Part shown: positions 2,270-64,000 of the stretch, one piece after another
How the letters are laid out: every line of letters starts with the position of its first letter
Position numbering within the stretch: the stretch's first letter is position 1
Source: an uncultured Planctomycetia bacterium
Lineage (GTDB): Bacteria > Planctomycetota > UBA8108 > UBA1146
DNA length: 64,000 nt
Direction: 5' to 3'
NCBI GenBank assembly: GCA_964605665.1
Contig: CAZSDP010000013.1
Coordinates: 49,331-113,330, forward strand
The notes under the pieces: generated by a model
Seen by the model: only the letters and a program-made list of their open reading frames with translations
The model's database searches: none
Told to the model about the DNA's origin: nothing
Program-made: the position numbers and the translations under genes

Positions 2270-2275
2270 CAATCG

Positions 2276-21862: not shown

Positions 21863-21919
21863 AGCTGCCCAACTTCCTGGAGGAACGACATGTACTTGGA
21901 CCACCGACGAGAACTCGAA

Positions 21920-24505: not shown

Positions 24506-24530
24506 ATTGGGCGAGTCTGCCCCCCCGGAC

Positions 24531-24559
24531 TTGACACTTTCACGTGACTCCCTGAAAGT
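24531..24559 (+). promoter_or_regulatory. Candidate sigma70 -35 box with overlapping palindromic operator for the sugar operon
   Basis: TTGACA at 24531-24536 overlapped by the perfect inverted repeat ACTTTCA-N10-TGAAAGT (24536-24559), about 40 nt upstream of the GTG at 24599. No canonical -10. Confidence 0.4.
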
Positions 24560-24598
24560 CGCGGTGTTTCCCACTCCATTCGACGAAAGAGGTACGCC

Positions 24599-25654: not shown

Positions 25655-25664
25655 GAGCAGGTTG

Positions 25665-26798: not shown

Positions 26799-26939
26799 AG
26801 GACTTCCAACGGGCAAGCTTCTTGTAACTCAATCAACAAAAGAAGCGATCTAATGATCGAGGGTATCGTCGGTCTACTTCACCAACTTCATAGGTTGGGG
26901 ACCGCCCAGTTGCATCTGCTGTAAATTGAGGTCGAGACC

Positions 26940-28124
26940 ATGACAGATTTCGCCGATTACGATCCGCGGCCAGAAGATCGCTTTACCTTTGGACTCTGGA
27001 CCGTTGGAAACCCAGGTCGGGACCCCTTCGGAGAAGCCGTGAGGGAGCGCCTCGCCCCCACTCACATCGTCAGAGAGCTCGCACGCGCGGGCGCTTATGG
27101 GGTCAATCTTCACGACAACGATCTGATTCCCTTCGGGTCGAGCGCCTCAGAGCGAGATGCCATTGTGTCCGACTTCAAACAAGCCCTCGCAGATCATGGT
27201 TTACGAGTCCCGATGTGCACGACCAATCTGTTTTCGCATCCGATTTTCAAAGACGGTGCTCTCACCGCTGACGACCCACAGATCAGAGCATTCGCACTTC
27301 GAAAAGTGATGGACTCGATGGACCTCGGCGTCGAGCTCGGAGCTGAAGTCTACGTGTTCTGGGGTGGACGGGAAGGAGCCGAAGCGGACGTCGCTCGCGA
27401 TCCACGCACTTGGATCGCTCGATACAGAGAGTCTCTAGACTTTCTTTGTGAGTACTCACGTAGCCAAGGATACTCTTATCGTTTCGCCTTGGAGGCGAAG
27501 CCGAACGAGCCAAGAGGAGACATCTATTTCGCAACTACCGGTCACATGTTGCACTTCATCACAACCTTGGCCCACCCAGAGATGGTCGGAGTAAACCCAG
27601 AGGTTGCCCATGAAAACCTCGCCGGCCTCAACTTCGTACACAATGTTGGTCAAGCATTGGAAGCAGAGAAGCTCTTCCACATCGATTTGAATGCTCAAAA
27701 GATTGGTCGCTACGACCAAGACTTACGATTCGGATCCGAAGATCTCAAGGGTGCCTTTCTGTTAGTGCGCCTACTCGAAGGAGGGTATGGAGGCTTCCCG
27801 AGGTGGGAAGGAATGCGTCACTTCGACGCCCATGCCTACCGCACCGAGGACGAAGCGGGCGTTTGGGAGTTTGCTCGCGGCTGCATGCGCACCTACAAGA
27901 TCTTGGCCGCGAAGGCGCGAGCATTTGACGCAGATCCTGAAGTACAAGAGCTGTTGGCACCGCCCCAGTCTCCGGAGGTCTCCGGGTACTTGGCTGAGTT
28001 CTCTCCCGATCATGCGGACGCGATTCGAAACTCGCCTTGCGATCTCTCTGTGCTTTCACGGCAGGGGAAGCAGCATGAACGGCTCGATCAGCTACTCATA
28101 GAACACCTACTCGGCGTCCGATAG
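26940..28124 (+). CDS. xylA: Xylose isomerase, class I (Thermus/Streptomyces type)
   Basis: [73 protein letters not shown]; 394 aa class I length. Confidence 0.95.
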
Positions 28125-28140
28125 TTCCCTAGGAGGATCT

Positions 28141-29628
28141 GTGGCTCTGACGATTGGTATCGATGTCGGCACTCAGGGGGTCAAAGGAATCGCGCTCGAC
28201 CCTGCCAAATCTAAAGCTCCACTCGCTCGCGCCTCCCGCAATCTTCACCTGATCGATGGACTTCCCCTCGGTGCAGCAGAGCAACACCCCGAGGATTGGT
28301 GGCAGGCGACGTGCGAAGTTATCGACGAGCTACTCTCCACAGATCGATTACAACGAAGCTCATTGAAAGCAATCGGAGTTTCAGGCCAGCAACATGGCTC
28401 GGTTTTTCTCGATAAGAATGACGAGGTGATTCGGCCAGCAAAACTCTGGTGTGACACCTCGACTGTCGCCGAAGCGAGAGCGATCTCTGAGTTGATCGGT
28501 CACCCTCTTCCGGTGGGATACACTGCGAGCAAGATTCGTTGGCTCGCCGACACAGAACCCGAGAACTGGCGAAAAACCGATGCGGTTCTTCTTCCACACG
28601 ACTTCATCAATCTGCGTCTATCGGGTCAGCGCGCAATGGAAGCGGGTGACGCATCGGGAACCGGATACTTCGATCCAAGTCGCCGTGACTGGGATCCGAC
28701 AATCGTCGACGCCGTTGCGGATCAACTCGGATCTCGCCTTCCTACGCTCGTCGAGCCGGATGTTGCGATCGGCACAGTCTCTCCCGCAATCGCAGAGAGA
28801 TTCGGTATCGCAAAGACGGTTCTGGTTTCACCAGGCGGCGGGGACAACATGATGAGCGCCATCGGAGCCGGAGCCACCAGGTCGGGAATCGTGATCACGA
28901 GCCTTGGCACTTCCGCGACTGTTTTCACCCGCAGTGATCGACCCGTGATCGATCAGACTGGTGCGATCGCCCCGTTCTGTTCTTCCGATGGAGCATGGCT
29001 GCCCCTTCTCTGCACCATGAACTGCACCAATGTCACGGAAGAGGTGAGAACAGCGTTCCAACTCTCCAAGAGAGAAGATCTCGAAGATCTGACAACGCTC
29101 GCCTCCCAGATTCCACCTGGGTGCGATGGTCTTTCCTTCATCCCATTTCTCGTCGGTGAACGAGTTCCGGACTTGCCGCAGGCAACTGGAACCATCGAAG
29201 GTCTAACCCCAGGATCACTGAGGCCCGCACCGCTGTTTCGTGCAGCTCTAGAAGGGGTCACTATCAATCTATCCCTCGGTGTCGACCGACTTCGGGAACT
29301 CGGCATCTCCATTGAAGAGGTCAGGTTGGTGGGAGGAGGATCAAAGAACTCACTGTGGAGAACCTTGGTCGCCGACCTCTTCGACGCAAAGGTAACGATC
29401 CCCCACGAGCCAGAGTCTGCGGCCCTAGGCGCAGCACTTCAGTCTCAGTGGATCGTCGCACGTGAAGAAGATCATGATGTGAGCCTCGATCAAATTGCCC
29501 AGCAATGCATCAGCTTCACCACGACCGAGATCAATCCCGATCGAGAGCGCCAAGCATCCTTGAAGCCGGTCCGTGATCGCTATCAGCAGCGCATCGAACA
29601 GCTTCTTCGCCAATCGAATTCGCCTTAG
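28141..29628 (+). CDS. xylB: Xylulokinase
   Basis: IGIDVGTQGVK, GVSGQQHG, PAKLWCD, DASGTG, GGGDNM, SLGTSATV, GERVP, LVGGGSK; follows xylA. Confidence 0.93.
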   Translation: MALTIGIDVGTQGVKGIALDPAKSKAPLARASRNLHLIDGLPLGAAEQHPEDWWQATCEVIDELLSTDRLQRSSLKAIGVSGQQHGSVFLDKNDEVIRPAKLWCDTSTVAEARAISELIGHPLPVGYTASKIRWLADTEPENWRKTDAVLLPHDFINLRLSGQRAMEAGDASGTGYFDPSRRDWDPTIVDAVADQLGSRLPTLVEPDVAIGTVSPAIAERFGIAKTVLVSPGGGDNMMSAIGAGATRSGIVITSLGTSATVFTRSDRPVIDQTGAIAPFCSSDGAWLPLLCTMNCTNVTEEVRTAFQLSKREDLEDLTTLASQIPPGCDGLSFIPFLVGERVPDLPQATGTIEGLTPGSLRPAPLFRAALEGVTINLSLGVDRLRELGISIEEVRLVGGGSKNSLWRTLVADLFDAKVTIPHEPESAALGAALQSQWIVAREEDHDVSLDQIAQQCISFTTTEINPDRERQASLKPVRDRYQQRIEQLLRQSNSP

Positions 29629-33392: not shown

Positions 33393-34541
33393 TTAAAGAT
33401 CTTGGAGGAACATCAGCAATGCTTGTTGATCGGCAGTAAAGAGGGCCTGGTAGGCCATTCTCGAGTTGAGCGCTTCGTCATCGTGGATCAAGATCGCGTC
33501 CTCGAGAGTTGTTGCCCGACCATCGTGAAGATATGGCGCGGTATTTCGGATGCCCCAAAGCGGGGGAGTCCGATACATGCCAGATGGAGCGTCCGGTTCC
33601 TCCATCCCCCGGAATGAATCGGGATAGATGTCGTGAAGAAGCAGATCGGAGTAAAGAGGCACGGGGCCCTGAGATCCGGTGAGGCTTGGAATGTGACACG
33701 TCGCACAGCCGATCGAGTTGAAGAGGGCTTCACCTGTCGCGATCGCTGGGTCAGTACCTCCAACACGTGGCGGATAAGCCAAGTTCTCCAGGTAGAAGGT
33801 CAGGTCTTCGAGATCACCGGCGGAGACTTCTGGATCGAGCACTCCATCGGAATCGGAGAGCAACCCAAAACCTCTGCCGTTGTCGCTGACGGTCAGCCCA
33901 ATCTCCCCGCTGAGAGCATCGTGAGAAAAGTCATCAACTGTCGGAACCTGAGCCTTCCAACCGAACTTTCCAACTTCCATCACCCCCCCGACATTGAGGA
34001 GGCGCGCCACACCGCGAACCCCGTCACCATCGGTATCGAACGGGTCTTCATTCGCGAGGATCGTCGCATCGGAAATCGTCTGGATCAGGCCGATACCCAA
34101 GGCTGACGGAGTCTGCCGCTGCTCAAAAACATCGGCAGTGGGGTCAGCTTCTTCTCGTCGGGGAGAATCCATACGACGGAGCTTACTGGCGACCTGTCCC
34201 CCGGGGAGATTCAGGAATGGCCCATTCCCGTTGTTGTCATTCGCAAAGCGGAAGACGTTCACGTCGAGTCCACCCGCCGCTCCGATGACCGGCTTCTGGT
34301 GACAGCTACGGCAAGAATCCGCGTTCAAGTCGGGTGTACCCAACCCTTGGGAGAGTCGCCAATCTCGATCGAACACCTTACGGCCTCGGATCCATTGGTC
34401 GAGATCCGCCCCAGTCAACGGTACCGGCGGTCCCCCTTCAGTTCCTGCGGGGGGCACTGGTGTCGTATCGTCGATGATCTCGGCATGAAGTGCCGTCACG
34501 ACCAAACTGAGGAACACTAAACTCAGAATCGAATTCTTCAT
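33393..34541 (-). CDS. Di-heme oxidoreductase family protein (DUF1111, bCcP/MauG-like), secreted
   Basis: Two CxxCH motifs (CRSCH, CATCH), GKFGWKA, LYSDLLLHD, YRTPPLWG..PYLHDGRATTLEDAILIH; signal peptide; TAATG coupling to the upstream paralog. Confidence 0.9.
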   Translation of the reverse strand: MKNSILSLVFLSLVVTALHAEIIDDTTPVPPAGTEGGPPVPLTGADLDQWIRGRKVFDRDWRLSQGLGTPDLNADSCRSCHQKPVIGAAGGLDVNVFRFANDNNGNGPFLNLPGGQVASKLRRMDSPRREEADPTADVFEQRQTPSALGIGLIQTISDATILANEDPFDTDGDGVRGVARLLNVGGVMEVGKFGWKAQVPTVDDFSHDALSGEIGLTVSDNGRGFGLLSDSDGVLDPEVSAGDLEDLTFYLENLAYPPRVGGTDPAIATGEALFNSIGCATCHIPSLTGSQGPVPLYSDLLLHDIYPDSFRGMEEPDAPSGMYRTPPLWGIRNTAPYLHDGRATTLEDAILIHDDEALNSRMAYQALFTADQQALLMFLQDL

Positions 34542-36016
34542 TAGAGTGCCTCCAAAAACTGAATAACTAAGTCTTGTTCAGCAGCGCTCAAGTTGGAGTA
34601 GGCATCTCTGATCGCCTGCGCTTCTCCACCATGTAACAGAATCGCTTCGTGCATCGATCCCGCACGTCCGTCGTGCAACCAGGGCCCATGGAATCGCACT
34701 CCCCAAAGGGGTTGAGTGCGAAACTCGCTGGCGGTCGAATCGAGAGGATCGATCGTTGAGAACTGCGGAGCCCCCATCGAGATCCCATCTGCGAGTATCG
34801 GTCCCATATCGTGGAGCAAAAGGTCAGTGTAAGCCTCGAGGTTGCCCACCGCTGAAGGAAGCGTCGGCAAGTGACACGCGACACAATTCAAGCTGTTGAA
34901 GAGTGCTTCACCCTGCTGCTCCTCTGAATTGAACGGCTTGCGAGGCGGCGGAGCGACGAACTTGTTGAAAACGAGGACGTCGGCAAAGTCAGAAGGGCTA
35001 AACTCGGGATCAGGAGTTCCATCATTGTCGAATGTTGCGGCGTCGAATCCCGCTCCTACCTGGAATTTGTAGCTGACGATTCCATCGCTTCCAAAGACCG
35101 GCACCGTCGTGATCCCCATCTGGTTGAACGCTGCGCCGCGGATAAACGCCTCAAGGAAATTCGCCTGCAACTTGTATCCGAAACGACCGAAGTTTCCGAA
35201 GCCGTCGGTATTGTAACGACCGCTGATTCCATCCCCATTCGAGTCATTCGGGTCGGAGTTCCCGATGATCGTCGTATTGCTGACAAACTCGAAGAGTCCA
35301 ACCCCAAAGAATGGTGGAGCATTTCGATGTGCGGGGTAGACCGGTTGTCCGAGTGCTTGAATCGAACCGGAGACCGGGATCGAGGGTCGATTGCCGTCGA
35401 TCTCGCCGTAGCTCGGCATCACCAAGCTCGGGACTCCCGCGACATGGGTTTGATTGGGAGGGTCACCGACCCCAACCAAGAAGAAGTTCCTGTATACGGG
35501 AGCAGAACCACCGATGGTGGGATGACTGTGGCACGCTTCGCAGCTTCCCGCATTGAAGAGAGGTCCCAACCCCTCTTCTGGCGTGAAGACCTTGGCCATC
35601 AACTCGCGGCCGTTCAAGAAGGAGCTGAACTCGTCTGCGTTCAAGCCAGGAATCGCGTCACCCACATTACACGGGGCGTGTGCGTCGCAATCGAGACTGT
35701 CAGAGGTTGGATCGGGCCCACAGACTCCAAAGGGAGCACCGGGAGGTGGCCCTCCAGAAAACAAGAAGCCGAAGAGATAAATGGGGTCCGCAAGGTTGGT
35801 CGTGCCATCGTCATTGGTGTCCATCGCATCCACGCAATAGACGACCTCGCCGAGGAACAAGACCTCAAGAGACGCGACACCATCGGCAATATTGACGATG
35901 TTGTCGGTATTCACGTCTCCGCGAATAAAGTCACGCCCTTCGACAGCTCCCATTCCAAAAATGAGCACTGCGAAAAAACAGACTACCCAGCAACTCATGG
36001 TGGGTCGTAGTTTCAT
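34541..36016 (-). CDS. Dockerin + di-heme oxidoreductase family protein (DUF1111), secreted
   Basis: Signal peptide, dockerin FIRGDVNTDNIVNIAD..CVDAMDTNDDGTTNLAD, CEACH and CVACH, GRFGYK, YTDLLLHD, FRTQPLWG..PWLHDGRA. Start 36016 (the ORF extends to 36076). Confidence 0.88.
   Translation of the reverse strand: MKLRPTMSCWVVCFFAVLIFGMGAVEGRDFIRGDVNTDNIVNIADGVASLEVLFLGEVVYCVDAMDTNDDGTTNLADPIYLFGFLFSGGPPPGAPFGVCGPDPTSDSLDCDAHAPCNVGDAIPGLNADEFSSFLNGRELMAKVFTPEEGLGPLFNAGSCEACHSHPTIGGSAPVYRNFFLVGVGDPPNQTHVAGVPSLVMPSYGEIDGNRPSIPVSGSIQALGQPVYPAHRNAPPFFGVGLFEFVSNTTIIGNSDPNDSNGDGISGRYNTDGFGNFGRFGYKLQANFLEAFIRGAAFNQMGITTVPVFGSDGIVSYKFQVGAGFDAATFDNDGTPDPEFSPSDFADVLVFNKFVAPPPRKPFNSEEQQGEALFNSLNCVACHLPTLPSAVGNLEAYTDLLLHDMGPILADGISMGAPQFSTIDPLDSTASEFRTQPLWGVRFHGPWLHDGRAGSMHEAILLHGGEAQAIRDAYSNLSAAEQDLVIQFLEAL
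35669..35929 (-). repeat. Dockerin-type repeat 1 (4-Cys variant)
   Basis: FIRGDVNTDNIVNIAD..LF..CVDAMDTNDDGTTNLADPI..LFSGGPPP..CGPDP..LDC..C. Confidence 0.8.
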
Positions 36017-36568
36017 TCTAGGCCTTCCGCACGTGTCATCTCTGCTCGATTCGCTTTGCACAAATCGCTGGCTCACCCATCAATGATCACGCGAAATTCG
36101 AGAATTCCTCAACGACTTCTGCGGAAAGTACCGGCGGGATGGCTGAGCAGGTCTTCCCTTCCCAGCCTTTGGACTTTTCCAGAAGGTAAATCCGTCTACG
36201 AACGCTTCGTGCGTTGAGAGAAGCCCGAGCGCAGTCAGAAATCAGAGAACCTAAATCAGAGAATCAAGAAGTCTCTTTCTCTCGCTATCTCAAGCCCCCC
36301 ACCTGTCTAATTTTACCGGAACGAAGGCTCTCCGTGAACCTAACGATCAAAACTCGCCTCTTCATGCCGAGGAGAACGTTCTCAGCGAGTAAAAGTTGCC
36401 GGACTCGATTTCCGAGTCCGACACTCTCTTTCCGAAGACCGCACTCTTTCGGAGAGGTGCAACTCCGGAGAATCCCCCACAAGCCATTACTAACAAAGGA
36501 CTTGTGCGATCAAGAAGACGCCGGCCTCTCCCTTGCCTTATTCACAAGGCGACTGGAAGGAGTCCTCA

Positions 36569-57149: not shown

Positions 57150-58517
57150 TCAGGGACAGGCGCTCGTATCGTTGCAATCTAGGGGATCGGTATCAGAAGG
57201 GTCGACTCCACAAGAGAGTCCCGGCGCTGGAGGAGGCGCCCCCCCGACGAAGAGATAAGTAAACACGTAGATCGCGTCGGCGAGATCGAGAGCTCCCGAA
57301 TCATTGGAGTCTGCGGCATCTATGCATCCCAAGGCTCCCATCAGGAACAAGAAGTTCAAGATCGTCACCCCATCTGCAACATTGACCATGGCGTCGACGT
57401 TCGCGTCACCACGAATGAACTGCTCCAAGGGAATGCATTCGACGGTCTCGCAAATGAGGGTGGAATCGACGCCACACGAGCCCGCAACGGAGACGCAAAC
57501 ATCGTGTGGGCCATCGCTGGGAAGAGTGACCAAGGCACTGTTTCCCGCCACTCCCGATTGAACAACCGACCCGTCGACCGTGATCGTTGCGGTGTACGGG
57601 GGAAGCGGCCCGGTGAATCCAGACCAACTCAGACTGACTTCACAACCGGTCGGACCTTGAGCAGGCTCAGCGGTCAGAATCCCACCCGAAGGTGCTGGAT
57701 CGACCGTGCAATCAGCATCGCAACAAGTGGAAACCGAAGGCTGACCACCGATGATTGGGGTCAGGCAAACTTGACGACTTCCGCTTTGACCGGGAAGCAC
57801 CGTTCCATCGTCGGGCAGGCTATAAGTGGTGGCGGTTCCGGAGAGGGTCGTCGCCAATACACCGTCGATGCGCACTTCGATAGCGTCGTAGACGAAAGCA
57901 TTGGTCCAGGAGAGCTCGAAGTTACAAGCACACGGGCTTCCAGCTGCCACGCAGTTCAATCCGGTGATCGAGGGATCGAGAATGGTGATTTCCCCCGAAA
58001 GTTGATCGGGAATCACTTGGGCGCTAGACGGTTCAACGACAATTACCTCGACCGGTGGAACTCCGATCGTTGCACAAAAGTTGACGGTGCTAACCGAGCC
58101 GATGCCGCCCAGTGGTGAGTATGTCGCTCGTGCAAGCTCATAGTCCGCCCCGGGAAGTAGAGGGGAACAGAGCATAAAGCAAATGATCACCCCTTGGGTG
58201 AAACCGCCACTCTCCATGTCGAGAGACTCGAATTCCGGTGCACCCCCCCCATTACTTGTCTGGGTAGTGTCTCCGCTGGTGATCGCCTGCAAGGTCAGCT
58301 CTGCACTACTGTGACAAACTCCGTATGACCAACCGCTCAAGTTGATGCCACTGGAGCTGTCGAGAATTACGCCCACTTCCGCTTCGATACCTGGTGGCGT
58401 CATCGCACTCTCGAGCTGTATTTGATATGCATTCTGTTTTGCATCACTCACACTACAAAAAGCCAAGAGTGAAATGAGTCCGATGGCCACTTTGGTGTAT
58501 CGCGGTTTCCCGTGCAT
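57150..58517 (-). CDS. Secreted cohesin-like + two Cys-rich Ig/FN3-like + dockerin protein
   Basis: GGAGGAG RBS before ATG 58517, signal peptide. Beta-sandwich VGVILDSS..LSGWSYGVCH..GFTQGVII..YELARATY..VNFC resembles a cohesin. Two LSW-containing modules. Dockerin FIRGDANVDAMVNVAD..CIDAADSNDSGALDLAD. Confidence 0.7.
   Translation of the reverse strand: MHGKPRYTKVAIGLISLLAFCSVSDAKQNAYQIQLESAMTPPGIEAEVGVILDSSSGINLSGWSYGVCHSSAELTLQAITSGDTTQTSNGGGAPEFESLDMESGGFTQGVIICFMLCSPLLPGADYELARATYSPLGGIGSVSTVNFCATIGVPPVEVIVVEPSSAQVIPDQLSGEITILDPSITGLNCVAAGSPCACNFELSWTNAFVYDAIEVRIDGVLATTLSGTATTYSLPDDGTVLPGQSGSRQVCLTPIIGGQPSVSTCCDADCTVDPAPSGGILTAEPAQGPTGCEVSLSWSGFTGPLPPYTATITVDGSVVQSGVAGNSALVTLPSDGPHDVCVSVAGSCGVDSTLICETVECIPLEQFIRGDANVDAMVNVADGVTILNFLFLMGALGCIDAADSNDSGALDLADAIYVFTYLFVGGAPPPAPGLSCGVDPSDTDPLDCNDTSACP
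57153..57419 (-). repeat. Dockerin-type repeat 4 (4-Cys variant)
   Basis: FIRGDANVDAMVNVAD..LF..CIDAADSNDSGALDLADAI..LFVGGAPPPAP..CGVDP..LDC..C. Confidence 0.8.
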
Positions 58518-58760
58518 AACGCACTCCTCCAAACCGAGTGTTGGGCGTTCTGAAAATCACCCTATCAGCGCTCCTCGAATCGGGAAGGACAAGACTTTGC
58601 GCCTTCGTCTTCCACCGATTGAGAGAGCGTCAATTCAACAAATCAACGACAACCAAGACTCGTTCTAACTCACCCCTTTGCGCTCAATCTTCTTCATGCA
58701 GATCTAAACGCGATTTGATAAGGGAACGTCTTGAAGATGAGTGGAAAAGTCGTTGCAGTC

Positions 58761-59309: not shown

Positions 59310-59422
59310 CCCGAACCGTGGTACTTTCTCAATCTGCAGGCTGCCGAGAGCAGATCGCAATCGGAACGGAGCGATGGCACTCCGCCGATTCTCCAAGAGC
59401 GCAGGTGAAAGGTCGGGAGTTC

Positions 59423-62400
59423 TTGAACTCACCCCAGAAGCCGCTTCAGTTGTTCATGGCTTTCTTCACAGTTCTCTTCCTCTGGCAGAATCCAGTCGAC
59501 AGCCAGAGTGGCGACCGCGCTGGCGAAGCTCAACCGGAGAACTGGAGAGAGTGGGAGGTCCCACCTGCTCCCCCACTCAGCCCAGAGGAACAGCTGAGGT
59601 CTTTTCGCGTGGCCCCCGGGTTTCGAGTCGAACTGGTCGCGGCCGATCCCCTGATCGTCGATCCGATCACCATCGACTTCGATGAACACGGCCGACTCTG
59701 GGCAATCGAATTACGCGCATACATGCCCAATGTCGACGGCGAGGGGGAGTGCGATCCCCTCGGAACTGTCGTCGTTCTCGAGGATCTCGACGGCGATGGG
59801 ACCTACGACCGGAGAAATGAGTTTCTCACTGGATTAGTCAATCCGCGCGCCCTCGCCCTGGTTGACGGAGGCGTGCTCGTGGGAGAGCCGCCCTATCTCT
59901 GGTACTGCCGAGACGTCGACGGTGATCTTCGTTCAGACTGGAAGATGGAGATCACTCGCTTCGGAAGTCCCAATCCCGATCACCTTGAACACACAGAAAA
60001 CGGTCTTCTTCGAAATCTCGACAACTGGCTCTACTGCGCAAAGTCTTCGCGACGATTCAAATTCTCCCGAGGCGAAGACGACGTACCGTACGTGAAGGAA
60101 GAACCCACCGCGTTTCGGGGACAATGGGGAATCGCCTCCGATGCCCAGGGACGACTGCACTACAACGGCAATTCGAGTTATCTATACGGTGATCCGTGGC
60201 CAGCTGAGTATCTGCTGCGCGGATCGGTTTGCGGTCGCGCCATCGGACAGTCTCCGGGCATCGGCGAGCGACTGGTGGATGACGAAGCAGTTTTCAGCAT
60301 TCGCGTGAATCCTGGAATCAATCGCGGATATCAACCGGGAATGCTCCGTAAAGATGGTCGCTTAGCGCGCACCACCTCGGTCAGTGGTCTCGCCATCGAA
60401 CGTGGAGGGTGCTTCCCAACGGAGTATCGCGGGAACGCCTTCATTCCCGAACCCGCAGGCAATGTGGTCGCTAATTTCCGATCGAAGGATCACCGAGGAG
60501 AATTGCATCGCACCCAGAGGTTGTTTCCCGACGAAGATTGGGGTTCACGAGCATTTCTAGCGAGTTCCGATGAACGATTTCGGCCGGTCGACTGCGCATT
60601 CGGACCTGAGGGAGCGCTCTATGTGGTCGATCTTTACCGAGGCATTTTGCAACACCGCCAGTATGTGACCAGTTATCTCCGCTCCCAGATTCTCGAGCGT
60701 GGTCTCGATCGCCCGGTCGGATTGGGTCGTATCTGGAGAGTTGTCCCAGAGAATTGGTCGCCGCCGAAGCAAACTCTCGACCAACACTTCCGCGACCTCC
60801 CAGCCTGCGTGCGATCGCTCTCACATGAAAGTGGCTGGATACGAGAGGTCGCCCAGCGAAAACTGATCGAAGCAAATGACCCCACGATCGTTCCCCTCTT
60901 AAATGCGAAGGTGAGTTCTGGCCCGACCATCGGCAGAATCCATGCTCTATGGACTCTCGAGGGACTCCAATCGCAAGATGTTGAAACGATCCGCACAGCA
61001 CTTGCTTTCAGTGATGCGCAGCTGAGAATCCAAGCTCTGCGGGTTGCGGAGAGATCGATCGGAAGTGATCAGGAAGAACGAGTTCTCGACGCACTCCTAG
61101 AGCTCACCGAAGATCCCGATCTGCAAGTCCGACGGCAGCTGATGTTCTCTCTCGGTGCATTTGATCGGGAGCGCGCGCGTCGAGCGATGCTCGAGCTCGT
61201 CCTGGCGGACAGTGGAGACCCGATCATTCGTCTCGCCCTCGCCAGCGGAATCAAAGGCCATCATGAGAGTCTGATTCGCTCACTCCTAGAATCGCGCGAC
61301 CAAGAACTCCGAGCGCTCGATCGGCTCCTCTTCGTGGAGCTGACAGCGAGTTGGATCGCTACCGATCGGTCAAGAATCGACCGAGCCCTCGAACTCGCTC
61401 ATACGTACTTTGACCAATCTTCAGAAGAAGTCCTCGCCATACTGGACGGAGTCCTACTGATTCTCGAACGTCGTGGCACCCCGCCTGCGGTTCTAAACCT
61501 TCCCCCTGACCTCCTCTCGAGAACCGAGCGATCTGGCGCATTGACCGCCCGCCTCGAGAGGTTGGCCAACCGCCTCCGTTGGTCACAGATAGATCTGAAC
61601 AACGCCGAGGCGGATTCTCCTCTGACTCCCCTGCCAGAAGCTTACGCAGGATTCGAGGAGCGAGGGGCTGCACTCTTTCCAACCTGCGCGGTTTGCCACG
61701 GCGTCACTGGGGAGGGGATTCAGGGGTTGGCGCCTCCTCTCCGAAACTCTCAATTCCTCAACTCTGATTCAGCCCTCGTTCGCATTATCCGAGACGGTCT
61801 CACCGGAGCTCTACAGGTCGATGGTCAGGAGTGGGATCTGACGATGCCTGGGCATAGTGCTGATGCGCGTTTCGATCACGTCGGAGTCGCGTCTCTCATC
61901 ACCTGGCTCAGACGACAGTGGGGTCACCGCGCTCCTCCGATCTCGGCAGAAACTGTCGAAGAGATTTTCCAGCGAGACTCAACTCGAAATCTCCCATGGA
62001 CCGCTGCCGAGCTCTTCGATACCGATTCGAGTGAGAGCGCCAAGGCGGCCTCAGCGTTCAAGGTAAATCGTCTCGAAGCAGATCACAGCTGGATCGATTT
62101 GTTCGACGGAACATCTTTGAAAGGCTGGTCAACTCAAGGAGGTCGAGCGCAATATCGAGTCGAAGGTGACTCGATCGTCGGCCAGAGTGTTCCCAACTCT
62201 CCCAATACATTTCTTTGTACCGATCGATCATTCTCCGATTTCGAGCTGCAGTATGAATTCAAAGTCGACCCTGCTCTGAACTCAGGAGTTCAGATTCGAA
62301 GTCGAGTGGGAGAAGATGGCATCGTTCGAGGCTTGCAAATTGAGATCGACGTCGATCTGAATCGGCAGCGCTTTTGGAGCGCGGGCATCTACGAAGAGGG

Positions 62401-62665
62401 TGGACGAGGTTGGCTCGCCGACTTGGCGAAGAATCGCGAGGCAAGAGAAGCAGCGCTGCCACACGACTGGAATCGTGTTCGAGTCCGGGCAATCGGTGGA
62501 TCGATCGAAACATGGATCAATGACGTCCCGGCGGCGAAGCTGTGGGATACAAAAGCACTCGAAGGAATCATCGGGCTACAAGTCCACGGAGTCGGAACAC
62601 GCCAGGATCCCCTCGAAGTACGCTGGCGGAAGATCAGATTACTCCCCCTCGATCAGAAAGACTGA
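59423..62665 (+). CDS. PVC-type heme-binding dehydrogenase-like protein: beta-propeller + HEAT repeats + cytochrome c + DUF1080 (3-keto-disaccharide hydrolase-like)
   Basis: FRVAPGFRVELVAADPLIVDPITIDFDEHGRLWAIE, DLDGDG..FLTGL, RFRPV..GPEGALYVVD, HEAT region, CAVCH with distal MPG, C-terminal WIDLFDGTSLKGW..DFELQYEFK..NSGVQIRS..WN..GLQVH. Start uncertain (59318-59456). Confidence 0.85.
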   Translation: MNSPQKPLQLFMAFFTVLFLWQNPVDSQSGDRAGEAQPENWREWEVPPAPPLSPEEQLRSFRVAPGFRVELVAADPLIVDPITIDFDEHGRLWAIELRAYMPNVDGEGECDPLGTVVVLEDLDGDGTYDRRNEFLTGLVNPRALALVDGGVLVGEPPYLWYCRDVDGDLRSDWKMEITRFGSPNPDHLEHTENGLLRNLDNWLYCAKSSRRFKFSRGEDDVPYVKEEPTAFRGQWGIASDAQGRLHYNGNSSYLYGDPWPAEYLLRGSVCGRAIGQSPGIGERLVDDEAVFSIRVNPGINRGYQPGMLRKDGRLARTTSVSGLAIERGGCFPTEYRGNAFIPEPAGNVVANFRSKDHRGELHRTQRLFPDEDWGSRAFLASSDERFRPVDCAFGPEGALYVVDLYRGILQHRQYVTSYLRSQILERGLDRPVGLGRIWRVVPENWSPPKQTLDQHFRDLPACVRSLSHESGWIREVAQRKLIEANDPTIVPLLNAKVSSGPTIGRIHALWTLEGLQSQDVETIRTALAFSDAQLRIQALRVAERSIGSDQEERVLDALLELTEDPDLQVRRQLMFSLGAFDRERARRAMLELVLADSGDPIIRLALASGIKGHHESLIRSLLESRDQELRALDRLLFVELTASWIATDRSRIDRALELAHTYFDQSSEEVLAILDGVLLILERRGTPPAVLNLPPDLLSRTERSGALTARLERLANRLRWSQIDLNNAEADSPLTPLPEAYAGFEERGAALFPTCAVCHGVTGEGIQGLAPPLRNSQFLNSDSALVRIIRDGLTGALQVDGQEWDLTMPGHSADARFDHVGVASLITWLRRQWGHRAPPISAETVEEIFQRDSTRNLPWTAAELFDTDSSESAKAASAFKVNRLEADHSWIDLFDGTSLKGWSTQGGRAQYRVEGDSIVGQSVPNSPNTFLCTDRSFSDFELQYEFKVDPALNSGVQIRSRVGEDGIVRGLQIEIDVDLNRQRFWSAGIYEEGGRGWLADLAKNREAREAALPHDWNRVRVRAIGGSIETWINDVPAAKLWDTKALEGIIGLQVHGVGTRQDPLEVRWRKIRLLPLDQKD

Positions 62666-63091
62666 GCAGATCAGCGACCTACGTTTGAGGGAATCTCATA
62701 GCGCTTCGGAGTCGCTCCCACCTCTGATTTTTCTCAGCAAGACGAGCTCGAGCAGCTTCCTTCGGTGAGCTCTACCTCCTCCGCCACGCAGCAGCTCCTT
62801 CCAACAACGCACCGACAGTTCAGGAGCAATGAAGCGCAACCCGCTCATCTCAACTGCAAAGCCCGAAAATCGTAAAATCGCTGCTCTTTCAGAGGCTCTA
62901 GAGATGCGATTCTCCGACGGAGTGAAACGGACGATGCCCTCAAGGGCCGATTCGCGTTAGCATGTGGAAACTCGGGCCGGTGGTGATCGGTGCTCCGAGG
63001 CCCTCTCGAAATTGGTCAACGACTTGTTCTGACTGATTTCGAGAAGTCTGTTCCTTGGGAATTCTCAACAACATCAGATTGGAGGCCAACG

Positions 63092-64000
63092 ATGCACAAA
63101 GGCATCGTGTGGGTGGTCGCCCTATTCCTCGGCTTGCTGAGTCAATTCGCGATCGGAACCACAAGGTTGGGTTCGATATGCTCGGCACAGACCGAGCCGA
63201 GAAGCGGTATCGAAGAGCGCGAGATCGGAGTTCATGCCCTGACCGGGGCGACGATCATCACGACACCAGGAACTCAGATCGAAGATGGCATCATCTTGAT
63301 CCGGCGTGGAGTGATCGAAGCGGTTGGAAAACGAATCGCCATTCCGCAGGAAGCACGGGTTTGGGATCTGAGCGGCCACACGATCACCGCCGGCTGGATC
63401 GATCTGGACTTCCGGCTCGAGCCAAAACTCCCTACTGAAGGAGAATCGCGAGAAGGACGCGCTTGGAACGATCGAGTGCATCCTGAGATCGACATCTCCG
63501 AGGGACTCCAAATCGATGAAGATCAGGCAAAGTCTCATCGAGAGTCTGGCTTCGCGATCGCCCTTGCAACACCGTCGAAGGGCATTCTCGCTGGTCAAGG
63601 TTCTCTCGTTCGAATGACGGGCCGGGACGATCGTCGAACCGTGTTGGCACATCGAATGATGCAGATTGCCTCACTGGAGCATGGCGGTTGGGGAGATGGA
63701 GGATACCCAGGATCGCGTATGGGAGCGATCGCACTCCTTCGGCAGTCGCTGCTCGATGCCCAGTGGTACCAAGAAGCGTGGCAACAACATCAAACATCTC
63801 CCGCCGCGATCCCCAGACCGGAAGTCAACATCGCCCTCGCGGCGATGGGACCGGTAATCAACGGAGATCAGCCGATCGCACTGCGGTCTCGAGATGTCCT
63901 CGATCTATTGAGTCTGGGCAAAATTGCAAGTGAGTTCGGACTGCGGGGATTCGCATTCGGAAGCGGCGAGGAGCAGCTCTGGCTCCCCGAGGTCGCTCAA
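63092..64000 (+). CDS. Secreted amidohydrolase family protein (5' part, truncated by window end)
   Basis: Not in the ORF track because it is open-ended. Translated by hand: GGAGG RBS, MHKGIVWVVALFLGLL signal, HALTGATII..GIILIRRGVIEAVG..DLSGHTITAGWID, YPGSRMGAIALLRQSLLDAQWY. Confidence 0.85.
   Translation, partial: MHKGIVWVVALFLGLLSQFAIGTTRLGSICSAQTEPRSGIEEREIGVHALTGATIITTPGTQIEDGIILIRRGVIEAVGKRIAIPQEARVWDLSGHTITAGWIDLDFRLEPKLPTEGESREGRAWNDRVHPEIDISEGLQIDEDQAKSHRESGFAIALATPSKGILAGQGSLVRMTGRDDRRTVLAHRMMQIASLEHGGWGDGGYPGSRMGAIALLRQSLLDAQWYQEAWQQHQTSPAAIPRPEVNIALAAMGPVINGDQPIALRSRDVLDLLSLGKIASEFGLRGFAFGSGEEQLWLPEVAQ

What the first reader, a model, noticed from the sequence alone, without database searches (positions are those of the whole stretch)
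59423..62665. Dehydrogenase-like propeller + cytochrome c + DUF1080 fusion: candidate one-chain oxidative glycoside-cleaving enzyme
Seen: PVC-type beta-propeller, HEAT repeats, single c-heme (CAVCH at 61685-61699, MPG ligand) and a complete DUF1080 domain (62090-62662). Established: DUF1080 proteins act on 3-keto-glycosides in the non-hydrolytic oxidation/elimination/hydration pathway, which needs an upstream C3 dehydrogenase. The propeller family resembles glucose/sorbosone dehydrogenases, and its substrates in PVC bacteria are unknown. Inference: the fusion suggests the abundant PVC heme dehydrogenases are periplasmic glycoside 3-dehydrogenases that pass electrons to the heme and product to the fused lyase.
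Basis: inference. Interest (0 to 1): 0.62.

Follow-up and report, generated by a model that had tools for sequence, protein, structure and literature searches.

The report
Sugar-oxidising cytochrome fused to its partner
A planctomycete gene joins an exported propeller-plus-haem protein of unknown function to a small sugar-acting domain that in close relatives is a separate neighbouring gene; this points to a respiratory-chain-linked way of cutting glycosides by oxidation instead of hydrolysis, but no enzyme activity has been measured.

Summary
One gene (59423/59456..62665, +) encodes a signal peptide, a DUF7133/TIGR02604 six-bladed propeller, HEAT repeats, one c-type haem domain (CAVCH 61685-61699, Met in MPG) and a full-length DUF1080 (PF06439) domain.

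The fusion is real and not random. Syntenic orthologues carry the DUF1080 as a separate, overlapping downstream gene with its own signal peptide. The same DUF1080 subfamily has been fused to this propeller family at least four times, at either end. Of 80 species-level loci, 19 have a DUF1080 fused or within 6 kb. Seven further loci carry an abutting Tat-exported TIM barrel whose closest solved relatives are 3-keto-glycoside lyases (AL1/BT1, AtOGE). Elsewhere this DUF1080 subfamily mostly sits beside Tat-exported Gfo/Idh/MocA oxidoreductases.

Three points stay unproven. The redox cofactor is unknown; similarity to PQQ sugar dehydrogenases is weak. C3 regiochemistry is untested. The DUF1080 subfamily (BT3469 domain-1 type) keeps three of eight BT2157 site residues unchanged, has two swapped and lacks three.

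Extending the idea to all PVC haem propellers is not supported. Verdict: new variant of a known kind, worth testing.

The parts
59423..62665 (+). Whole gene. The start is either TTG 59423 or ATG 59456; the stop is at 62663-62665.
   Evidence: ORF listing; orthologue gene calls of 1069 aa; comparison of N-termini.
59423..59503 (+). Predicted Sec signal peptide, LNSPQKPLQLFMAFFTVLFLWQNPVDS, with cleavage before QSGD.
   Evidence: Read directly from the sequence. Orthologues have signal peptides ending AxA|QNGD. Export is required for c-haem attachment (established knowledge).
59579..60751 (+). DUF7133 / TIGR02604 six-bladed beta-propeller.
   Evidence: Pfam E 1.9e-82; TIGR02604 above its cut-off; AF2 model with pLDDT 91.9; Foldseek.
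59987..60001 (+). EHTEN motif containing an invariant His, a candidate catalytic base.
   Evidence: E155 is invariant and H156 nearly invariant (90% or more) in 67 homologues; both are invariant in the six-sequence alignment A2. hhalign places the His on the His of the GSDH 'H.GG..FGPDG.LYV' motif, but with a probability of only 11.6%.
60572..60592 (+). ERFRPVD motif with two invariant Arg residues. It resembles the last-blade R-x-R-[DE]-V..GPDG.LYV motif of sGDH-type enzymes.
   Evidence: Invariant columns; motif seen in Asd and 7cdy alignments. The PQQ-binding role of the sGDH arginines is recalled from memory, not tested.
60800..61276 (+). HEAT / alpha-solenoid repeats linking the propeller to the haem domain.
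   Evidence: Pfam HEAT_2 E 2e-7; alphaRep matches at E 4e-10.
61658..61969 (+). Class I c-type cytochrome domain.
   Evidence: PDB match to the cytochrome c domain of a copper nitrite reductase, E 4e-13; Pfam Cytochrom_C.
61685..61699 (+). Haem-attachment motif CAVCH, the only CxxCH in the protein.
   Evidence: C, C and H are at least 90% conserved in 67 homologues.
61844..61852 (+). MPG; the Met is the probable sixth haem ligand.
   Evidence: Aligned to the Met of MPP in the nitrite reductase cytochrome domain. M and P are at least 90% conserved.
61970..62089 (+). Fusion linker. It replaces the stop/start overlap and the DUF1080 signal peptide seen in split orthologues.
   Evidence: Alignment A4. 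dN/dS is 0.36 here, against 0.06-0.16 in the domains.
62090..62662 (+). DUF1080 / PF06439 beta-jelly-roll domain of the BT3469 domain-1 ('Q-x-E') subfamily.
   Evidence: Pfam E 1.2e-34; 4jqt E 2.6e-52; AF2 model pLDDT 94.8, TM 0.90 to 4jqt; dN/dS 0.098.
62279..62287 (+). NSG; the Asn is equivalent to BT2157 Asn134.
   Evidence: N present in 70 of 70 fused domains. Residue numbering mapped.
62336..62344 (+). QIE; these positions are equivalent to BT2157 Glu164 and Gln166, with the two residues swapped.
   Evidence: Q/E in 70 of 70 fused domains and in 4jqt domain 1; E/Q in classical members.
62579..62587 (+). QVH; equivalent to BT2157 Gln273 and His275.
   Evidence: Conserved in 70 of 70 fused domains.

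Best explanation
The gene encodes an exported single-chain version of a two-protein periplasmic system. Module 1 is the propeller, HEAT arm and one His/Met c-haem. It is a redox enzyme that acts on a carbohydrate and passes electrons through its own haem towards the respiratory chain. Module 2 is the DUF1080 domain, normally a separate co-transcribed secreted protein, which acts on the same sugar.

Shown: the domain anatomy; export; origin of the fusion from adjacent genes; recurrence and specificity of the partnership; replacement of DUF1080 by an AL1/BT1/OGE-like Tat-exported TIM barrel; purifying selection on all domains.

Inferred: that the propeller is a dehydrogenase; its cofactor (PQQ-like?); C3 regiochemistry; lyase/hydratase chemistry in this DUF1080 subfamily; the direction of electron flow.
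For: 1. Fusion of neighbouring genes. Orthologues P0006, P0010 and P0020 lie in the same syntenic locus. Each has an ~860-aa propeller-cytochrome gene followed, at a 1-nt gap or 4-nt overlap, by a 354-369-aa DUF1080 gene with its own signal peptide.
2. Recurrence. DUF1080 is C-terminal in the query clade and in P0239, and N-terminal in the Halieaceae clade and in P0110. The nearest relatives of P0239 and P0110 are unfused, so there were at least four fusion events. All 70 fused domains are of the same Q-x-E subfamily.
3. Census of 80 GTDB loci: 7 fused and 12 with a separate DUF1080 within 6 kb, mostly abutting. Against a rough background of 2.6% taken from published copy numbers, the binomial P is 2e-13.
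4. In 8 of the 80 loci (7 of them without a DUF1080), a TIM-barrel gene with a twin-arginine signal abuts the propeller-cytochrome gene. [quoted passage not shown] In the operons read gene by gene (L005, L007, L032), the propeller-cytochrome is the only exported protein with a redox domain. Where their N-termini were read (L005, L007), the two Gfo/Idh/MocA proteins have no signal peptide.
5. Reciprocal scan. In 80 metagenome loci, the closest relatives of this DUF1080 domain abut Tat-signal Gfo/Idh/MocA oxidoreductases in 22 loci (17 of the 42 loci of 6 kb or more) and DUF7133-cytochrome genes in 3. The habitual partner of this subfamily is therefore a periplasmic sugar oxidoreductase.
6. Precedent. 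BT2/AL2 DUF1080 proteins are 3-keto-glucoside lyases/hydratases. In Caulobacter, the periplasmic cytochrome-c-linked LacABC works with DUF1080.
7. The best Foldseek hits of the propeller are PQQ sugar dehydrogenases (6jt5 E 7.5e-11, 1cq1, 2ism, 2g8s). P0110 has a weak Pfam GSDH hit.
8. dN/dS is 0.06 for the propeller, 0.09 for the cytochrome and 0.10 for DUF1080.
9. Proteobacterial operons add TonB receptors (15 of 80 loci), KDG kinase, KDPG aldolase, UxaC/UxuA and a GntR regulator.
Against: - No cofactor site could be verified. Profile searches of PDB sequences found nothing significant for the propeller. hhalign to GSDH gives a probability of 11.6%. TM-scores are 0.43-0.52, and SMP30/LRE lactonases and virginiamycin B lyase score nearly as well.
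- Known sGDH/AA12 enzymes oxidise C1 of free sugars. None is known to oxidise C3 of glycosides (own knowledge).
- The DUF1080 domain is only E~4 from BT2157 by sequence. It lacks E103, Y190 and K245 and two 'finger' loops. Its fold is as close to the non-catalytic CBM66 (TM 0.66) as to BT2/AL2 (TM 0.59-0.66). No member of this subfamily has been assayed.
- The window's own locus holds no neighbouring sugar genes.
- Most family members have no lyase-type neighbour within 6 kb.
- A published assay reported plain lactose hydrolysis by a core-only family member purified from E. coli.
Confidence: 0.5

Rival explanations
1. Reverse or parallel order. The propeller is an sGDH/AA12-like dehydrogenase that oxidises the anomeric C1 of free sugars or reducing ends and passes electrons to its haem. 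DUF1080 serves as a carbohydrate-binding module, or as a conventional glycanase that supplies reducing ends. The analogue is fungal pyranose dehydrogenase (cytochrome + AA12 + CBM1).
For: The best fold matches are C1-oxidising PQQ enzymes, including CcPDH. The DUF1080 fold is as close to CBM66 as to BT2/AL2. Pfam DUF1080 and CBM66 annotations overlap, and endo-xanthanase/lichenase activity has been attributed to a Thermogutta DUF1080. Another family member carries a LamG lectin-type domain at the same C-terminal position. Proteobacterial operons contain aldonate/hexuronate catabolic genes.
Against: The subfamily exists mainly as ~225-aa standalone secreted proteins, which would be unusual for a binding module. 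It has an invariant polar constellation (N, Q-x-E, Q-x-H, R, E) and dN/dS of 0.10. Its usual neighbours are Tat-exported Gfo/Idh/MocA oxidoreductases. In DUF1080-less operons, the substituting partner is related to 3-keto-glycoside lyases, not to binding modules or glycanases.
Confidence: 0.2
2. The two modules are consecutive in the keto-glycoside pathway, but the propeller-cytochrome does not make the 3-keto-glycoside. Instead it oxidises or reduces a later intermediate (2-hydroxy-3-keto-glycal or 3-keto-sugar). Alternatively, it re-oxidises another enzyme, while a separate dehydrogenase encoded elsewhere carries out the C3 oxidation.
For: The same partnership evidence applies. Those data link the modules but do not order them. 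The window also encodes Gfo/Idh/MocA and TIM-barrel genes elsewhere.
Against: In the operons read gene by gene (L005, L007, L032), no other exported protein with a redox domain was identified. Where read (L005, L007), the Gfo proteins lack signal peptides. A lyase needs its keto substrate in the same compartment.
Confidence: 0.12
3. The propeller is a non-redox beta-propeller glycoside hydrolase (beta-galactosidase-like), as proposed in the literature for TIGR02604. The cytochrome has a role unrelated to catalysis.
For: Lac161_ORF7 (TIGR02604 + HEAT + cytochrome c), purified from E. coli, released glucose from lactose with Km 1.8 mM and kcat 13 s-1. The family is listed as a putative GH family.
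Against: CxxCH and the Met ligand are at least 90% conserved across the family, which is hard to explain for a hydrolase. The same paper reports beta-galactosidase activity for a GGDEF protein, and its proteins were made in IPTG-induced BL21(DE3), so carry-over of host LacZ is a concern (own inference). [quoted passage not shown] No GH-like fold appears among the top matches.
Confidence: 0.05
4. The system is not carbohydrate-directed. The propeller-cytochrome is a periplasmic redox protein for a metal or another small molecule, connected with the Nramp-like transporter that often accompanies it. The DUF1080 association is secondary.
For: An Nramp-like gene lies in 19 of 80 loci, often in the operon or divergent from it.
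Against: These Nramp-like proteins lack the DPGN and MPH metal-site motifs and score below the NCBIfam cut-off. In seven of the 80 loci and in L005/L007 they are flanked by two Gfo/Idh/MocA genes, and several of those operons also carry sugar-acid genes and TonB receptors. The window locus has no Nramp-like gene.
Confidence: 0.05

Closest known systems
Periplasmic glycoside 3-dehydrogenase plus DUF1080 (Caulobacter LacABC + CCNA_01705; Agrobacterium G3DH + 3-ketoglycoside 'hydrolase')
   Same: Both are periplasmic. In both, a dehydrogenase hands electrons to a c-type cytochrome and has a DUF1080 partner encoded nearby. Both cleave glycosides through a keto intermediate rather than by hydrolysis.
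   Different: The known dehydrogenase is an FAD-dependent GMC enzyme with separate cytochrome and small subunits. Here the catalytic module is a DUF7133 six-bladed propeller with no GMC or FAD domain, the cytochrome is in the same chain, and DUF1080 is fused and belongs to a different subfamily.
Bacteroides/Alistipes BT2156-2160 / AL1-4 oxidative glycoside-cleavage pathway (Nasseri et al., bioRxiv 10.1101/2024.03.25.586180)
   Same: Both use DUF1080 (BT2/AL2) and xylose-isomerase-like TIM-barrel (BT1/AL1) lyases together with an oxidoreductase. Both lyase families are found next to DUF7133-cytochrome genes.
   Different: In that pathway the oxidoreductase is a Gfo/Idh/MocA enzyme with tightly bound NAD, and the cycle is redox-neutral. 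Here a haem domain implies net electron export. The DUF1080 domain lacks E103, Y190 and K245 and swaps E164/Q166.
BT3469 (PDB 4jqt), a tandem DUF1080 protein of unknown function
   Same: Its domain 1 is the closest solved relative of the window's DUF1080: E 2.6e-52, 44% identity, TM 0.90, rmsd 1.4 A. It has the same Q-x-E motif and the same missing loops.
   Different: BT3469 is a standalone tandem protein (Q-x-E type followed by classical type). Metagenomic relatives with this tandem layout sit next to Tat-exported Gfo/Idh/MocA genes, not next to a propeller-cytochrome.
PQQ-dependent soluble sugar dehydrogenases (sGDH 1cq1, Asd 2g8s, AA12 pyranose dehydrogenase 6jt5) and quinohaemoproteins
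   Same: They share the six-bladed propeller and are the best Foldseek matches. There are motif-level resemblances at the His motif and at the last-blade R-x-R..GPDG.LYV motif. The cytochrome + propeller + carbohydrate-module architecture parallels CcPDH (own knowledge).
   Different: Sequence relatedness is not significant for the query. TM-scores are only 0.43-0.52. The known enzymes oxidise C1 of free sugars. CcPDH has a b-type cytochrome and a CBM1.
Lac161_ORF7 (GenBank AGW45552), the only family member with any experimental report
   Same: It has the same TIGR02604 + HEAT_2 + cytochrome c core. It was recovered by functional selection for lactose use, and release of glucose from lactose was reported.
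   Different: It has no DUF1080 domain. It was interpreted as a hydrolase. Redox cofactors and haem loading were not examined.

Membership tests
PVC-type heme-binding CxxCH proteins (TIGR02604 / Pfam DUF7133 core) | N-terminal TIGR02604/DUF7133 propeller domain scoring above the curated cut-offs | tested here: met
   TIGR02604 scores 149.7 bits against a cut-off of 122.2. DUF7133 scores 278 bits against a cut-off of 27.
PVC-type heme-binding CxxCH proteins (TIGR02604 / Pfam DUF7133 core) | C-terminal c-type cytochrome domain with one CxxCH and a Met ligand, joined to the propeller by HEAT repeats | tested here: met
   CAVCH, MPG and HEAT_2 are present. These columns are at least 90% conserved in 67 homologues.
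PVC-type heme-binding CxxCH proteins (TIGR02604 / Pfam DUF7133 core) | Export signal, needed for haem c attachment | tested here: met
   A signal-peptide-like N-terminus is seen by inspection and by comparison with orthologues. No dedicated predictor was available.
DUF1080 / PF06439 (3-keto-disaccharide hydrolase family) | Full-length match to the family profile and a beta-jelly-roll fold | tested here: met
   Pfam match over profile positions 2-186 of 187, E 1.2e-34. The AF2 model has TM 0.90 to 4jqt and 0.59-0.66 to BT2/AL2.
BT2157/AL2-type 3-keto-glucoside 1,2-lyase / 3-keto-2-hydroxy-glucal hydratase | Conserved site residues E103, N134, E164, Q166, Y190, K245, Q273, H275 | tested here: not met
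   N134, Q273 and H275 are kept. E164/Q166 are swapped to Q/E. Y190 is Ala. The E103 and K245 loops are absent. Sequence E to 8tda is ~4. No NCBIfam family matched the DUF1080 region at E<=0.1.
BT2157/AL2-type 3-keto-glucoside 1,2-lyase / 3-keto-2-hydroxy-glucal hydratase | Genomic partnership with a periplasmic sugar oxidoreductase | tested here: met
   The subfamily abuts Tat-exported Gfo/Idh/MocA genes in 22 of 80 loci, or DUF7133-cytochrome genes.
BT2157/AL2-type 3-keto-glucoside 1,2-lyase / 3-keto-2-hydroxy-glucal hydratase | Elimination/hydration activity on 3-keto-glycosides; metal dependence | not testable with these tools
   This needs an enzyme assay.
sGDH / Asd / AA12 PQQ-dependent sugar dehydrogenases (PF07995 and relatives) | Six-bladed propeller of the sGDH type | tested here: inconclusive
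   The top Foldseek hits are PQQ dehydrogenases (E 7.5e-11), but TM is 0.43-0.52 and lactonases, HHIP and virginiamycin B lyase score similarly.
sGDH / Asd / AA12 PQQ-dependent sugar dehydrogenases (PF07995 and relatives) | Significant sequence or profile match to the family | tested here: not met
   The query has no Pfam GSDH hit. PDB profile searches found nothing. hhalign gives probability 11.6%, E 0.0026. Only P0110 has a weak GSDH hit, E 5e-4.
sGDH / Asd / AA12 PQQ-dependent sugar dehydrogenases (PF07995 and relatives) | Catalytic His and PQQ-binding Arg/Asn residues; PQQ available to the organism | tested here: inconclusive
   The invariant His of EHTEN and R351/R353 align to GSDH motifs only in a low-confidence alignment. 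No coordinates were available for superposition. PQQ biosynthesis genes could not be searched in the source genome.
FAD-GMC glycoside 3-dehydrogenase complexes (LacABC/G3DH) | GMC flavoprotein catalytic subunit | tested here: not met
   No GMC or FAD domain is present in the protein or its neighbours. The resemblance is functional, not a matter of family membership.

The most novel reading that the evidence does not exclude
DUF7133 propeller-cytochromes would be a previously unrecognised class of periplasmic glycoside dehydrogenase. They would be a quinohaemoprotein-like enzyme whose cofactor may or may not be PQQ. They would start non-hydrolytic glycoside cleavage and send the electrons straight to the respiratory chain. 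They would work with either DUF1080 or TIM-barrel keto-glycoside lyases, with uptake of the product through a DPGN-less Nramp-like transporter and finishing by two cytoplasmic Gfo/Idh/MocA enzymes. The window's protein would then be a natural single-chain 'oxidative glycosidase'.
Probability: 0.35. Interest if true: 0.8.

Novelty: new variant of a known kind. Interest (0 to 1): 0.66.

Why it matters
DUF7133/TIGR02604 proteins form a very large family: 10,464 clusters at 50% identity with E<=1e-3. One Gemmataceae genome is reported to hold 20 copies. The family has no assigned function, and the full-text search found no paper that mentions DUF7133.

If these proteins start oxidative glycoside cleavage, three things follow.
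- A major unexplained gene expansion in Planctomycetota, Verrucomicrobiota, Acidobacteriota and marine Gammaproteobacteria gets a testable role in glycan turnover.
- The newly described keto-glycoside route gains an energy-conserving, respiratory-chain-linked entry step.
- The odd report of a 'beta-galactosidase' with a cytochrome domain gets a mechanistic reinterpretation.

The fused protein is a convenient single-polypeptide target for testing all of this.

Tried and rejected
- **Local operon context in the window.** The neighbours are a K+ channel, a Zn phospholipase-C-like protein, ROK, amidohydrolases, TldD/PmbA and DUF1501/DUF1800. The same synteny is seen in orthologues. None gives a sugar-pathway clue, so the gene looks monocistronic.
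- **Sequence route to a solved propeller.** phmmer and two profile searches against PDB gave only EF-hand-like DxDGDG and generic NHL-blade matches. I do not treat the calmodulin hits as homology.
- **Residue-level test of PQQ-site residues.** No model coordinates are returned, so structural superposition was impossible. A local hhalign against a small GSDH alignment was too weak to decide.
- **BT2157 sequence from the paper's supplement.** It is not present as text. I recovered it instead from PDB alignments of 3osd/8rr2 and verified it by matching all eight published residues at an offset of 25, and by the C-terminal primer.
- **ThuA and the window's own TIM barrels as recurrent neighbours.** There were no hits in the 80 loci.
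- **Promoter/terminator and Rfam scans around the gene.** Nothing exceeded chance.
- **Assembly artefact or pseudogene fusion.** Rejected on the grounds of independent assemblies and low dN/dS.
- **'DUF1080 is merely a degenerate appendage'.** Rejected: dN/dS is 0.098, the polar motifs are invariant, and the subfamily exists on its own.

Full report
**1. What is in the sequence**

The finding lies in one long ORF, 59318..62665 on the + strand. Pfam places four domains in it:
- DUF7133 at residues 88-478 (E 1.9e-82);
- HEAT_2 at 565-643 (E 2e-7);
- Cytochrom_C at 781-829 (E 2.5e-5);
- a practically full-length 3keto-disac_hyd/DUF1080 domain at 925-1108, covering profile positions 2-186 of 187 (E 1.2e-34).

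NCBIfam's TIGR02604 model, 'PVC-type heme-binding CxxCH protein', scores above its curated cut-off (149.7 against 122.2 bits). The protein has exactly one CxxCH, CAVCH at 61685-61699, and an MPG at 61844-61852. The haem domain aligns to the C-terminal cytochrome c domain of a copper nitrite reductase (E 4e-13). CAVCH falls on CSVCH, and the Met of MPG on the Met of MPP.

The start codon is the one open detail. Gene callers used the ATG at 59456 in orthologues, giving 1069 aa. It also yields a canonical signal peptide with a charged n-region and a cleavage site like the AxA|QNGD of other orthologues. Either way the protein is exported, as haem c attachment requires.

**2. The fusion is real and under selection**

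The same continuous reading frame is found in independent assemblies. These are P0001 (98% identity), P0002 (86%, five contigs), P0003, P0005, P0007 and a GTDB genome (L017, 76% in the propeller). Against the 86% orthologue, dN/dS is:
- 0.063 for the propeller;
- 0.155 for the HEAT region;
- 0.092 for the cytochrome;
- 0.098 for DUF1080;
- 0.36 for the 63-residue linker.

The DUF1080 domain is as constrained as the rest of the protein. Only the linker is relaxed.

**3. Where the fusion came from**

Three more distant orthologues are P0006, P0010 and P0020 (44-51% identity). They lie in the same syntenic locus, with TldD/PmbA, an amidohydrolase and ROK upstream, and a Peptidase_M64/FHA protein and an NAD_binding_1 protein downstream. 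In each, an ~860-aa propeller-HEAT-cytochrome gene is followed, at a 1-nt gap or 4-nt overlap, by a separate 354-369-aa DUF1080 gene.

The separate DUF1080 proteins have their own signal peptides and a ~150-residue C-terminal extension. P0005 is fused and keeps that extension. The window protein is fused and has lost it. The window gene is therefore a fusion of two co-transcribed neighbours.

**4. The partnership is recurrent and specific**

*Independent fusions.* A large group of ~1300-aa gammaproteobacterial proteins (Halioglobus, Seongchinamella and relatives) carries the DUF1080 at the N-terminus of the same propeller-cytochrome core. The nearest relatives of two further fused proteins, P0110 (N-terminal) and P0239 (C-terminal), are unfused. 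This means at least four independent fusion events. All 70 fused DUF1080 domains belong to one subfamily.

*How common fusion is.* In an HMMER scan of 1.84 billion cluster representatives, the propeller alone finds 10,464 clusters at E<=1e-3. Only 6 of the best 150 carry DUF1080. Other members are fused to sulfatase, ceramidase-like or LamG domains. Fusion is a minority state.

*Neighbourhood census.* In 80 species-representative genome loci holding the closest propellers (43-76% identity), my local HMM scan found 7 fused genes. It found 12 more loci with a separate DUF1080 ORF within 6 kb, most of them abutting, either upstream or downstream and on either strand. Published copy numbers (17 DUF1080 genes in a genome I took to be about 8 Mb; one search gives the count, not the size) suggest a background of about 2.6% per 12-kb window. 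The binomial probability of 19 of 80 is then 2e-13. It is still 3e-4 with a 10% background. The background figure is an estimate, not a measurement.

**5. An independent line: a second lyase family takes the same place**

In eight of the 80 loci, seven of them without a DUF1080 ORF in the locus (L044 has only a weak classical-type hit), a ~320-aa AP_endonuc_2 (xylose-isomerase-like TIM barrel) gene abuts the propeller-cytochrome gene. All eight have twin-arginine motifs at the N-terminus, so they are periplasmic.

The closest solved relatives of the one I searched (L032) are:
- 3l23, an uncharacterised structural-genomics 'sugar phosphate isomerase/epimerase' and the single best hit (E 3e-23);
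- 8bvk, the Agrobacterium O-glycoside beta-eliminase AtOGE, at E 1e-18.

One such operon (L032) reads: sulfatase, PfkB kinase, KDPG aldolase, TonB receptor, Tat-exported TIM barrel, propeller-cytochrome, Gfo/Idh/MocA, Nramp-like, Gfo/Idh/MocA, GntR.

In the two loci where I read their N-termini (L005, L007), the Gfo proteins begin directly with the Rossmann motif and have no signal peptide. In the operons read gene by gene (L005, L007, L032), the propeller-cytochrome is the only exported protein with a redox domain. Taken together, 26 of the 80 loci place the propeller-cytochrome next to a member of one of the two enzyme families known to break 3-keto-glycosides.

**6. The reciprocal view**

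The window's DUF1080 domain is 50-69% identical to a large set of standalone ~210-280-aa proteins from PVC bacteria. I examined 80 metagenome loci holding its closest relatives.
- Three are fused to, or abut, a DUF7133-cytochrome gene.
- 22 abut a Gfo/Idh/MocA gene; this is 17 of the 42 loci of at least 6 kb. Gaps are typically -27 to +29 nt.
- 25 of the 26 Gfo ORFs show an RR-x-[FLI] Tat motif; the remaining one is cut by a contig end.

Pfam confirmed the Gfo, Tat and DUF1080 calls on a sample, and showed that many of these DUF1080 proteins are tandem, like BT3469. A 69%-identical standalone copy lies beside a 1691-aa protein with a genuine GSDH domain. The habitual partner of this DUF1080 subfamily is thus a periplasmic sugar oxidoreductase. 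This is the strongest argument that it works as an enzyme of an oxidative sugar pathway rather than as a passive binding module.

**7. How close the DUF1080 domain is to the characterised enzymes**

It is not very close. By sequence it matches BT3469 domain 1 (4jqt, E 2.6e-52) but BT2157 only at E~4. I identified 3osd/8rr2 as BT2157. The paper states that BT2 was phased with 3OSD, and the cloning primer encodes the same C-terminus. The paper's numbering equals the 3osd numbering plus 25, with all eight published residues matching.

The eight residues in the window domain, and in all 70 fused domains, compare as follows:
- Asn134, Gln273 and His275 are kept.
- Glu164/Gln166 are consistently swapped to Gln/Glu.
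- Tyr190 is Ala in the window protein and variable across the subfamily.
- Glu103 and Lys245 sit in loops that this subfamily lacks.

In BT2, His275, the metal and Gln273 contact O2, O3 and O4 of the bound sugar, and Lys245 contacts O6. My inference is that the core may be retained while the C6 end of the pocket differs.

The AF2 model (pLDDT 94.8) superposes on 4jqt at TM 0.90. It scores only 0.59-0.66 on BT2/AL2/8rr2, and an equal 0.66 on the non-catalytic CBM66. Fold alone therefore cannot decide between enzyme and binding module. The domain belongs to Pfam DUF1080 but not to the BT2157-type family.

**8. What the propeller is**

The AF2 model is confident (pLDDT 91.9, pTM 0.93). Its best Foldseek matches are PQQ-dependent sugar dehydrogenases: CcPDH AA12 6jt5 (E 7.5e-11), TrAA12, sGDH 1cq1, TTHA0570, Asd and 3a9g. 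However, TM-scores are only 0.43-0.52. Luciferin-regenerating enzyme, SMP30 lactonases, HHIP and virginiamycin B lyase follow within two orders of magnitude.

Sequence and profile searches of PDB found nothing significant. One relative, P0110, has a sub-threshold Pfam GSDH hit (E 5e-4). I made a local hhalign of 67 propellers against a small GSDH alignment, built from the L014 GSDH domain and the PDB fragments printed. It aligned 318 columns at E 0.0026 but with a probability of only 11.6%. That alignment puts the invariant His of EHTENGLL..LDNWLY on the His of the GSDH 'H.GG..FGPDG.LYV' motif.

The invariant ERFRPVD..GPEGALYVVD resembles the last-blade '[QE]R[IY]R[DE]V..GPDG.LYV' of Asd, 7cdy and sGDH. 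That the two arginines of sGDH bind PQQ carboxylates is recalled from memory, not tested. I rate sGDH-like ancestry as likely and PQQ use as open. The near-universal His/Met cytochrome domain is the main reason to think the propeller is a redox enzyme at all.

**9. Literature**

[quoted passage not shown] AL1/BT1 TIM barrels are the lyases for the beta anomer.
- In Caulobacter, a periplasmic cytochrome-c-linked lactose 3-dehydrogenase (LacABC) works with a DUF1080 protein.
- DUF1080 is over-represented in Planctomycetes, overlaps CBM66 annotations, and has been proposed to act as an endo-xanthanase.
- The only experimental report on the propeller family is Lac161_ORF7 (TIGR02604 + HEAT + cytochrome c). 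Its cosmid complemented a lac- Sinorhizobium meliloti mutant but not E. coli, and the purified protein was reported to release glucose from lactose. A later genome paper therefore lists TIGR02604, DUF1080 and PF01408 together as putative, uncatalogued glycoside hydrolase families expanded in Gemmataceae.
- I found no paper that mentions DUF7133, or that links this family to keto-glycoside chemistry.

My own caution concerns the hydrolase claim. The protein came from IPTG-induced BL21(DE3), and the same study attributes beta-galactosidase activity to a GGDEF protein. The complementation pattern would equally fit a need for periplasmic cytochrome maturation or for a cofactor that E. coli lacks.

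**10. Most likely mechanism**

The protein is exported. The propeller binds a glycoside and oxidises it. Two electrons leave through the tethered His/Met haem, held on the HEAT arm, to a periplasmic acceptor and the respiratory chain. The keto-glycoside passes to the covalently attached DUF1080 jelly roll. A metal/His/Gln/Asn site there promotes beta-elimination and/or hydration and releases the aglycone or the next sugar.

Steps that are shown:
- the architecture;
- export;
- the origin of the fusion;
- the specificity of the partnership;
- substitution by an AL1/BT1/OGE-like TIM barrel;
- purifying selection.

Steps that are inferred:
- dehydrogenase activity and its cofactor;
- attack at C3;
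- lyase/hydratase chemistry in this subfamily;
- the direction of electron flow.

I put 0.5 on this account.

In proteobacteria the conserved accessory genes suggest the rest of a pathway: outer-membrane uptake, periplasmic oxidation and cleavage, import, and cytoplasmic reduction or catabolism. The accessory genes are a TonB receptor, an Nramp-like transporter that has lost the DPGN and MPH metal motifs, two cytoplasmic Gfo/Idh/MocA enzymes and sugar-acid genes. This is speculation built. None of these genes is next to the window's gene.

**11. Rivals**

- C1 oxidation of reducing sugars, with DUF1080 as a binding or glycanase module (0.2). It fits the known chemistry of the fold and the CBM66 resemblance. 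It does not explain the Tat-exported Gfo partners or the lyase-type TIM-barrel substitute.
- Same pathway, but the propeller acts on a later intermediate (0.12).
- A plain hydrolase, as published (0.05).
- A non-carbohydrate redox role tied to the Nramp-like gene (0.05).

**12. Verdict**

The enzymology is untested, the DUF1080 domain is not of the characterised type, and extension to the whole PVC family is not justified. I file the finding as a new variant of a known kind (periplasmic oxidative glycoside cleavage), with a candidate new dehydrogenase family and a natural single-chain form.

Noticed in passing
L030, L032, L035, L043, L048, L064 (about 8600-12250 in each); L005 2766-6381; L007 13889-17474: A conserved operon module, Gfo/Idh/MocA, Nramp-like transporter, Gfo/Idh/MocA, lies directly downstream of (or beside) DUF7133-cytochrome genes. 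The Nramp-like proteins have GGGS in place of the DPGN metal motif and no MPH motif, and they score below the NCBIfam Nramp cut-off. They are probably not Mn/Fe transporters.
   Followed up: partly
L032 4931-5902; L058 8747-9754; also L035, L043, L044, L048, L054, L064: Tat-signal xylose-isomerase-like TIM-barrel genes abut DUF7133-cytochrome genes where DUF1080 is absent. The closest solved relatives are the AL1/BT1 lyases and AtOGE.
   Followed up: yes
L133, L136, L138, L143, L146-L148, L154, L157, L166, L169-L171, L175 and others: The window's DUF1080 subfamily, often as a tandem BT3469-like protein, usually abuts Tat-exported Gfo/Idh/MocA oxidoreductase genes with gaps of a few bases. This pairing appears to be a widespread, uncharacterised periplasmic module.
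   Followed up: partly
window 20135-29628: A sugar gene cluster lies 30 kb from the finding: SSF symporter (-), an 871-aa PIG-L-domain protein, an AP_endonuc_2 TIM barrel (24599-25654), Gfo/Idh/MocA (25593-26798), a xylose-isomerase-like protein (26940-28124) and an FGGY kinase (28141-29628). No signal peptides are evident.
   Followed up: no
window 57150-58532 (-); L014 1354-6429 (-): The divergent upstream neighbour is a 460-aa protein with no Pfam or NCBIfam hit and a D/N-rich, dockerin-like C-terminus. It is syntenic in relatives. In L014 the corresponding position holds a 1691-aa GSDH + PKD protein beside a standalone DUF1080 that is 69% identical to the window's domain.
   Followed up: partly
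L008 13300-13673; L009 13270-13674; L004 about 13350-13831: Split DUF1080 genes and the fused P0005 carry a ~150-residue C-terminal extension with no family hit. The window protein has lost it.
   Followed up: no
L005 10640-11170 (P0060 residues about 215-405): Gammaproteobacterial N-terminal fusions have an unassigned segment of ~190 residues between DUF1080 and the propeller.
   Followed up: no
window 59750-59960 (propeller residues about 85-135 of the domain): Two DxDGD loops (LEDLDGDGTYD and CRDVDGDLRSD) give weak EF-hand/calmodulin matches in PDB profile searches. They are probably structural Ca2+ sites on the propeller.
   Followed up: no
window 33393-36076 (-): Two adjacent DHOR (di-haem oxidoreductase / putative peroxidase) genes.
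   Followed up: no
window 104-12166 (-): A BatA/VWA/DUF58/MoxR-AAA cluster that also includes DUF4175 and a PQQ_2 (BamB-like) propeller protein.
   Followed up: no
window 62987-64000 (+): An ORF runs off the window end (338 codons, starting MHKGIVWVVALFLGLL...). It had no Pfam hit at E<=1e-4. In the 86%-identical relative, the gene at this position is a 1096-aa amidohydrolase followed by a second amidohydrolase.
   Followed up: partly
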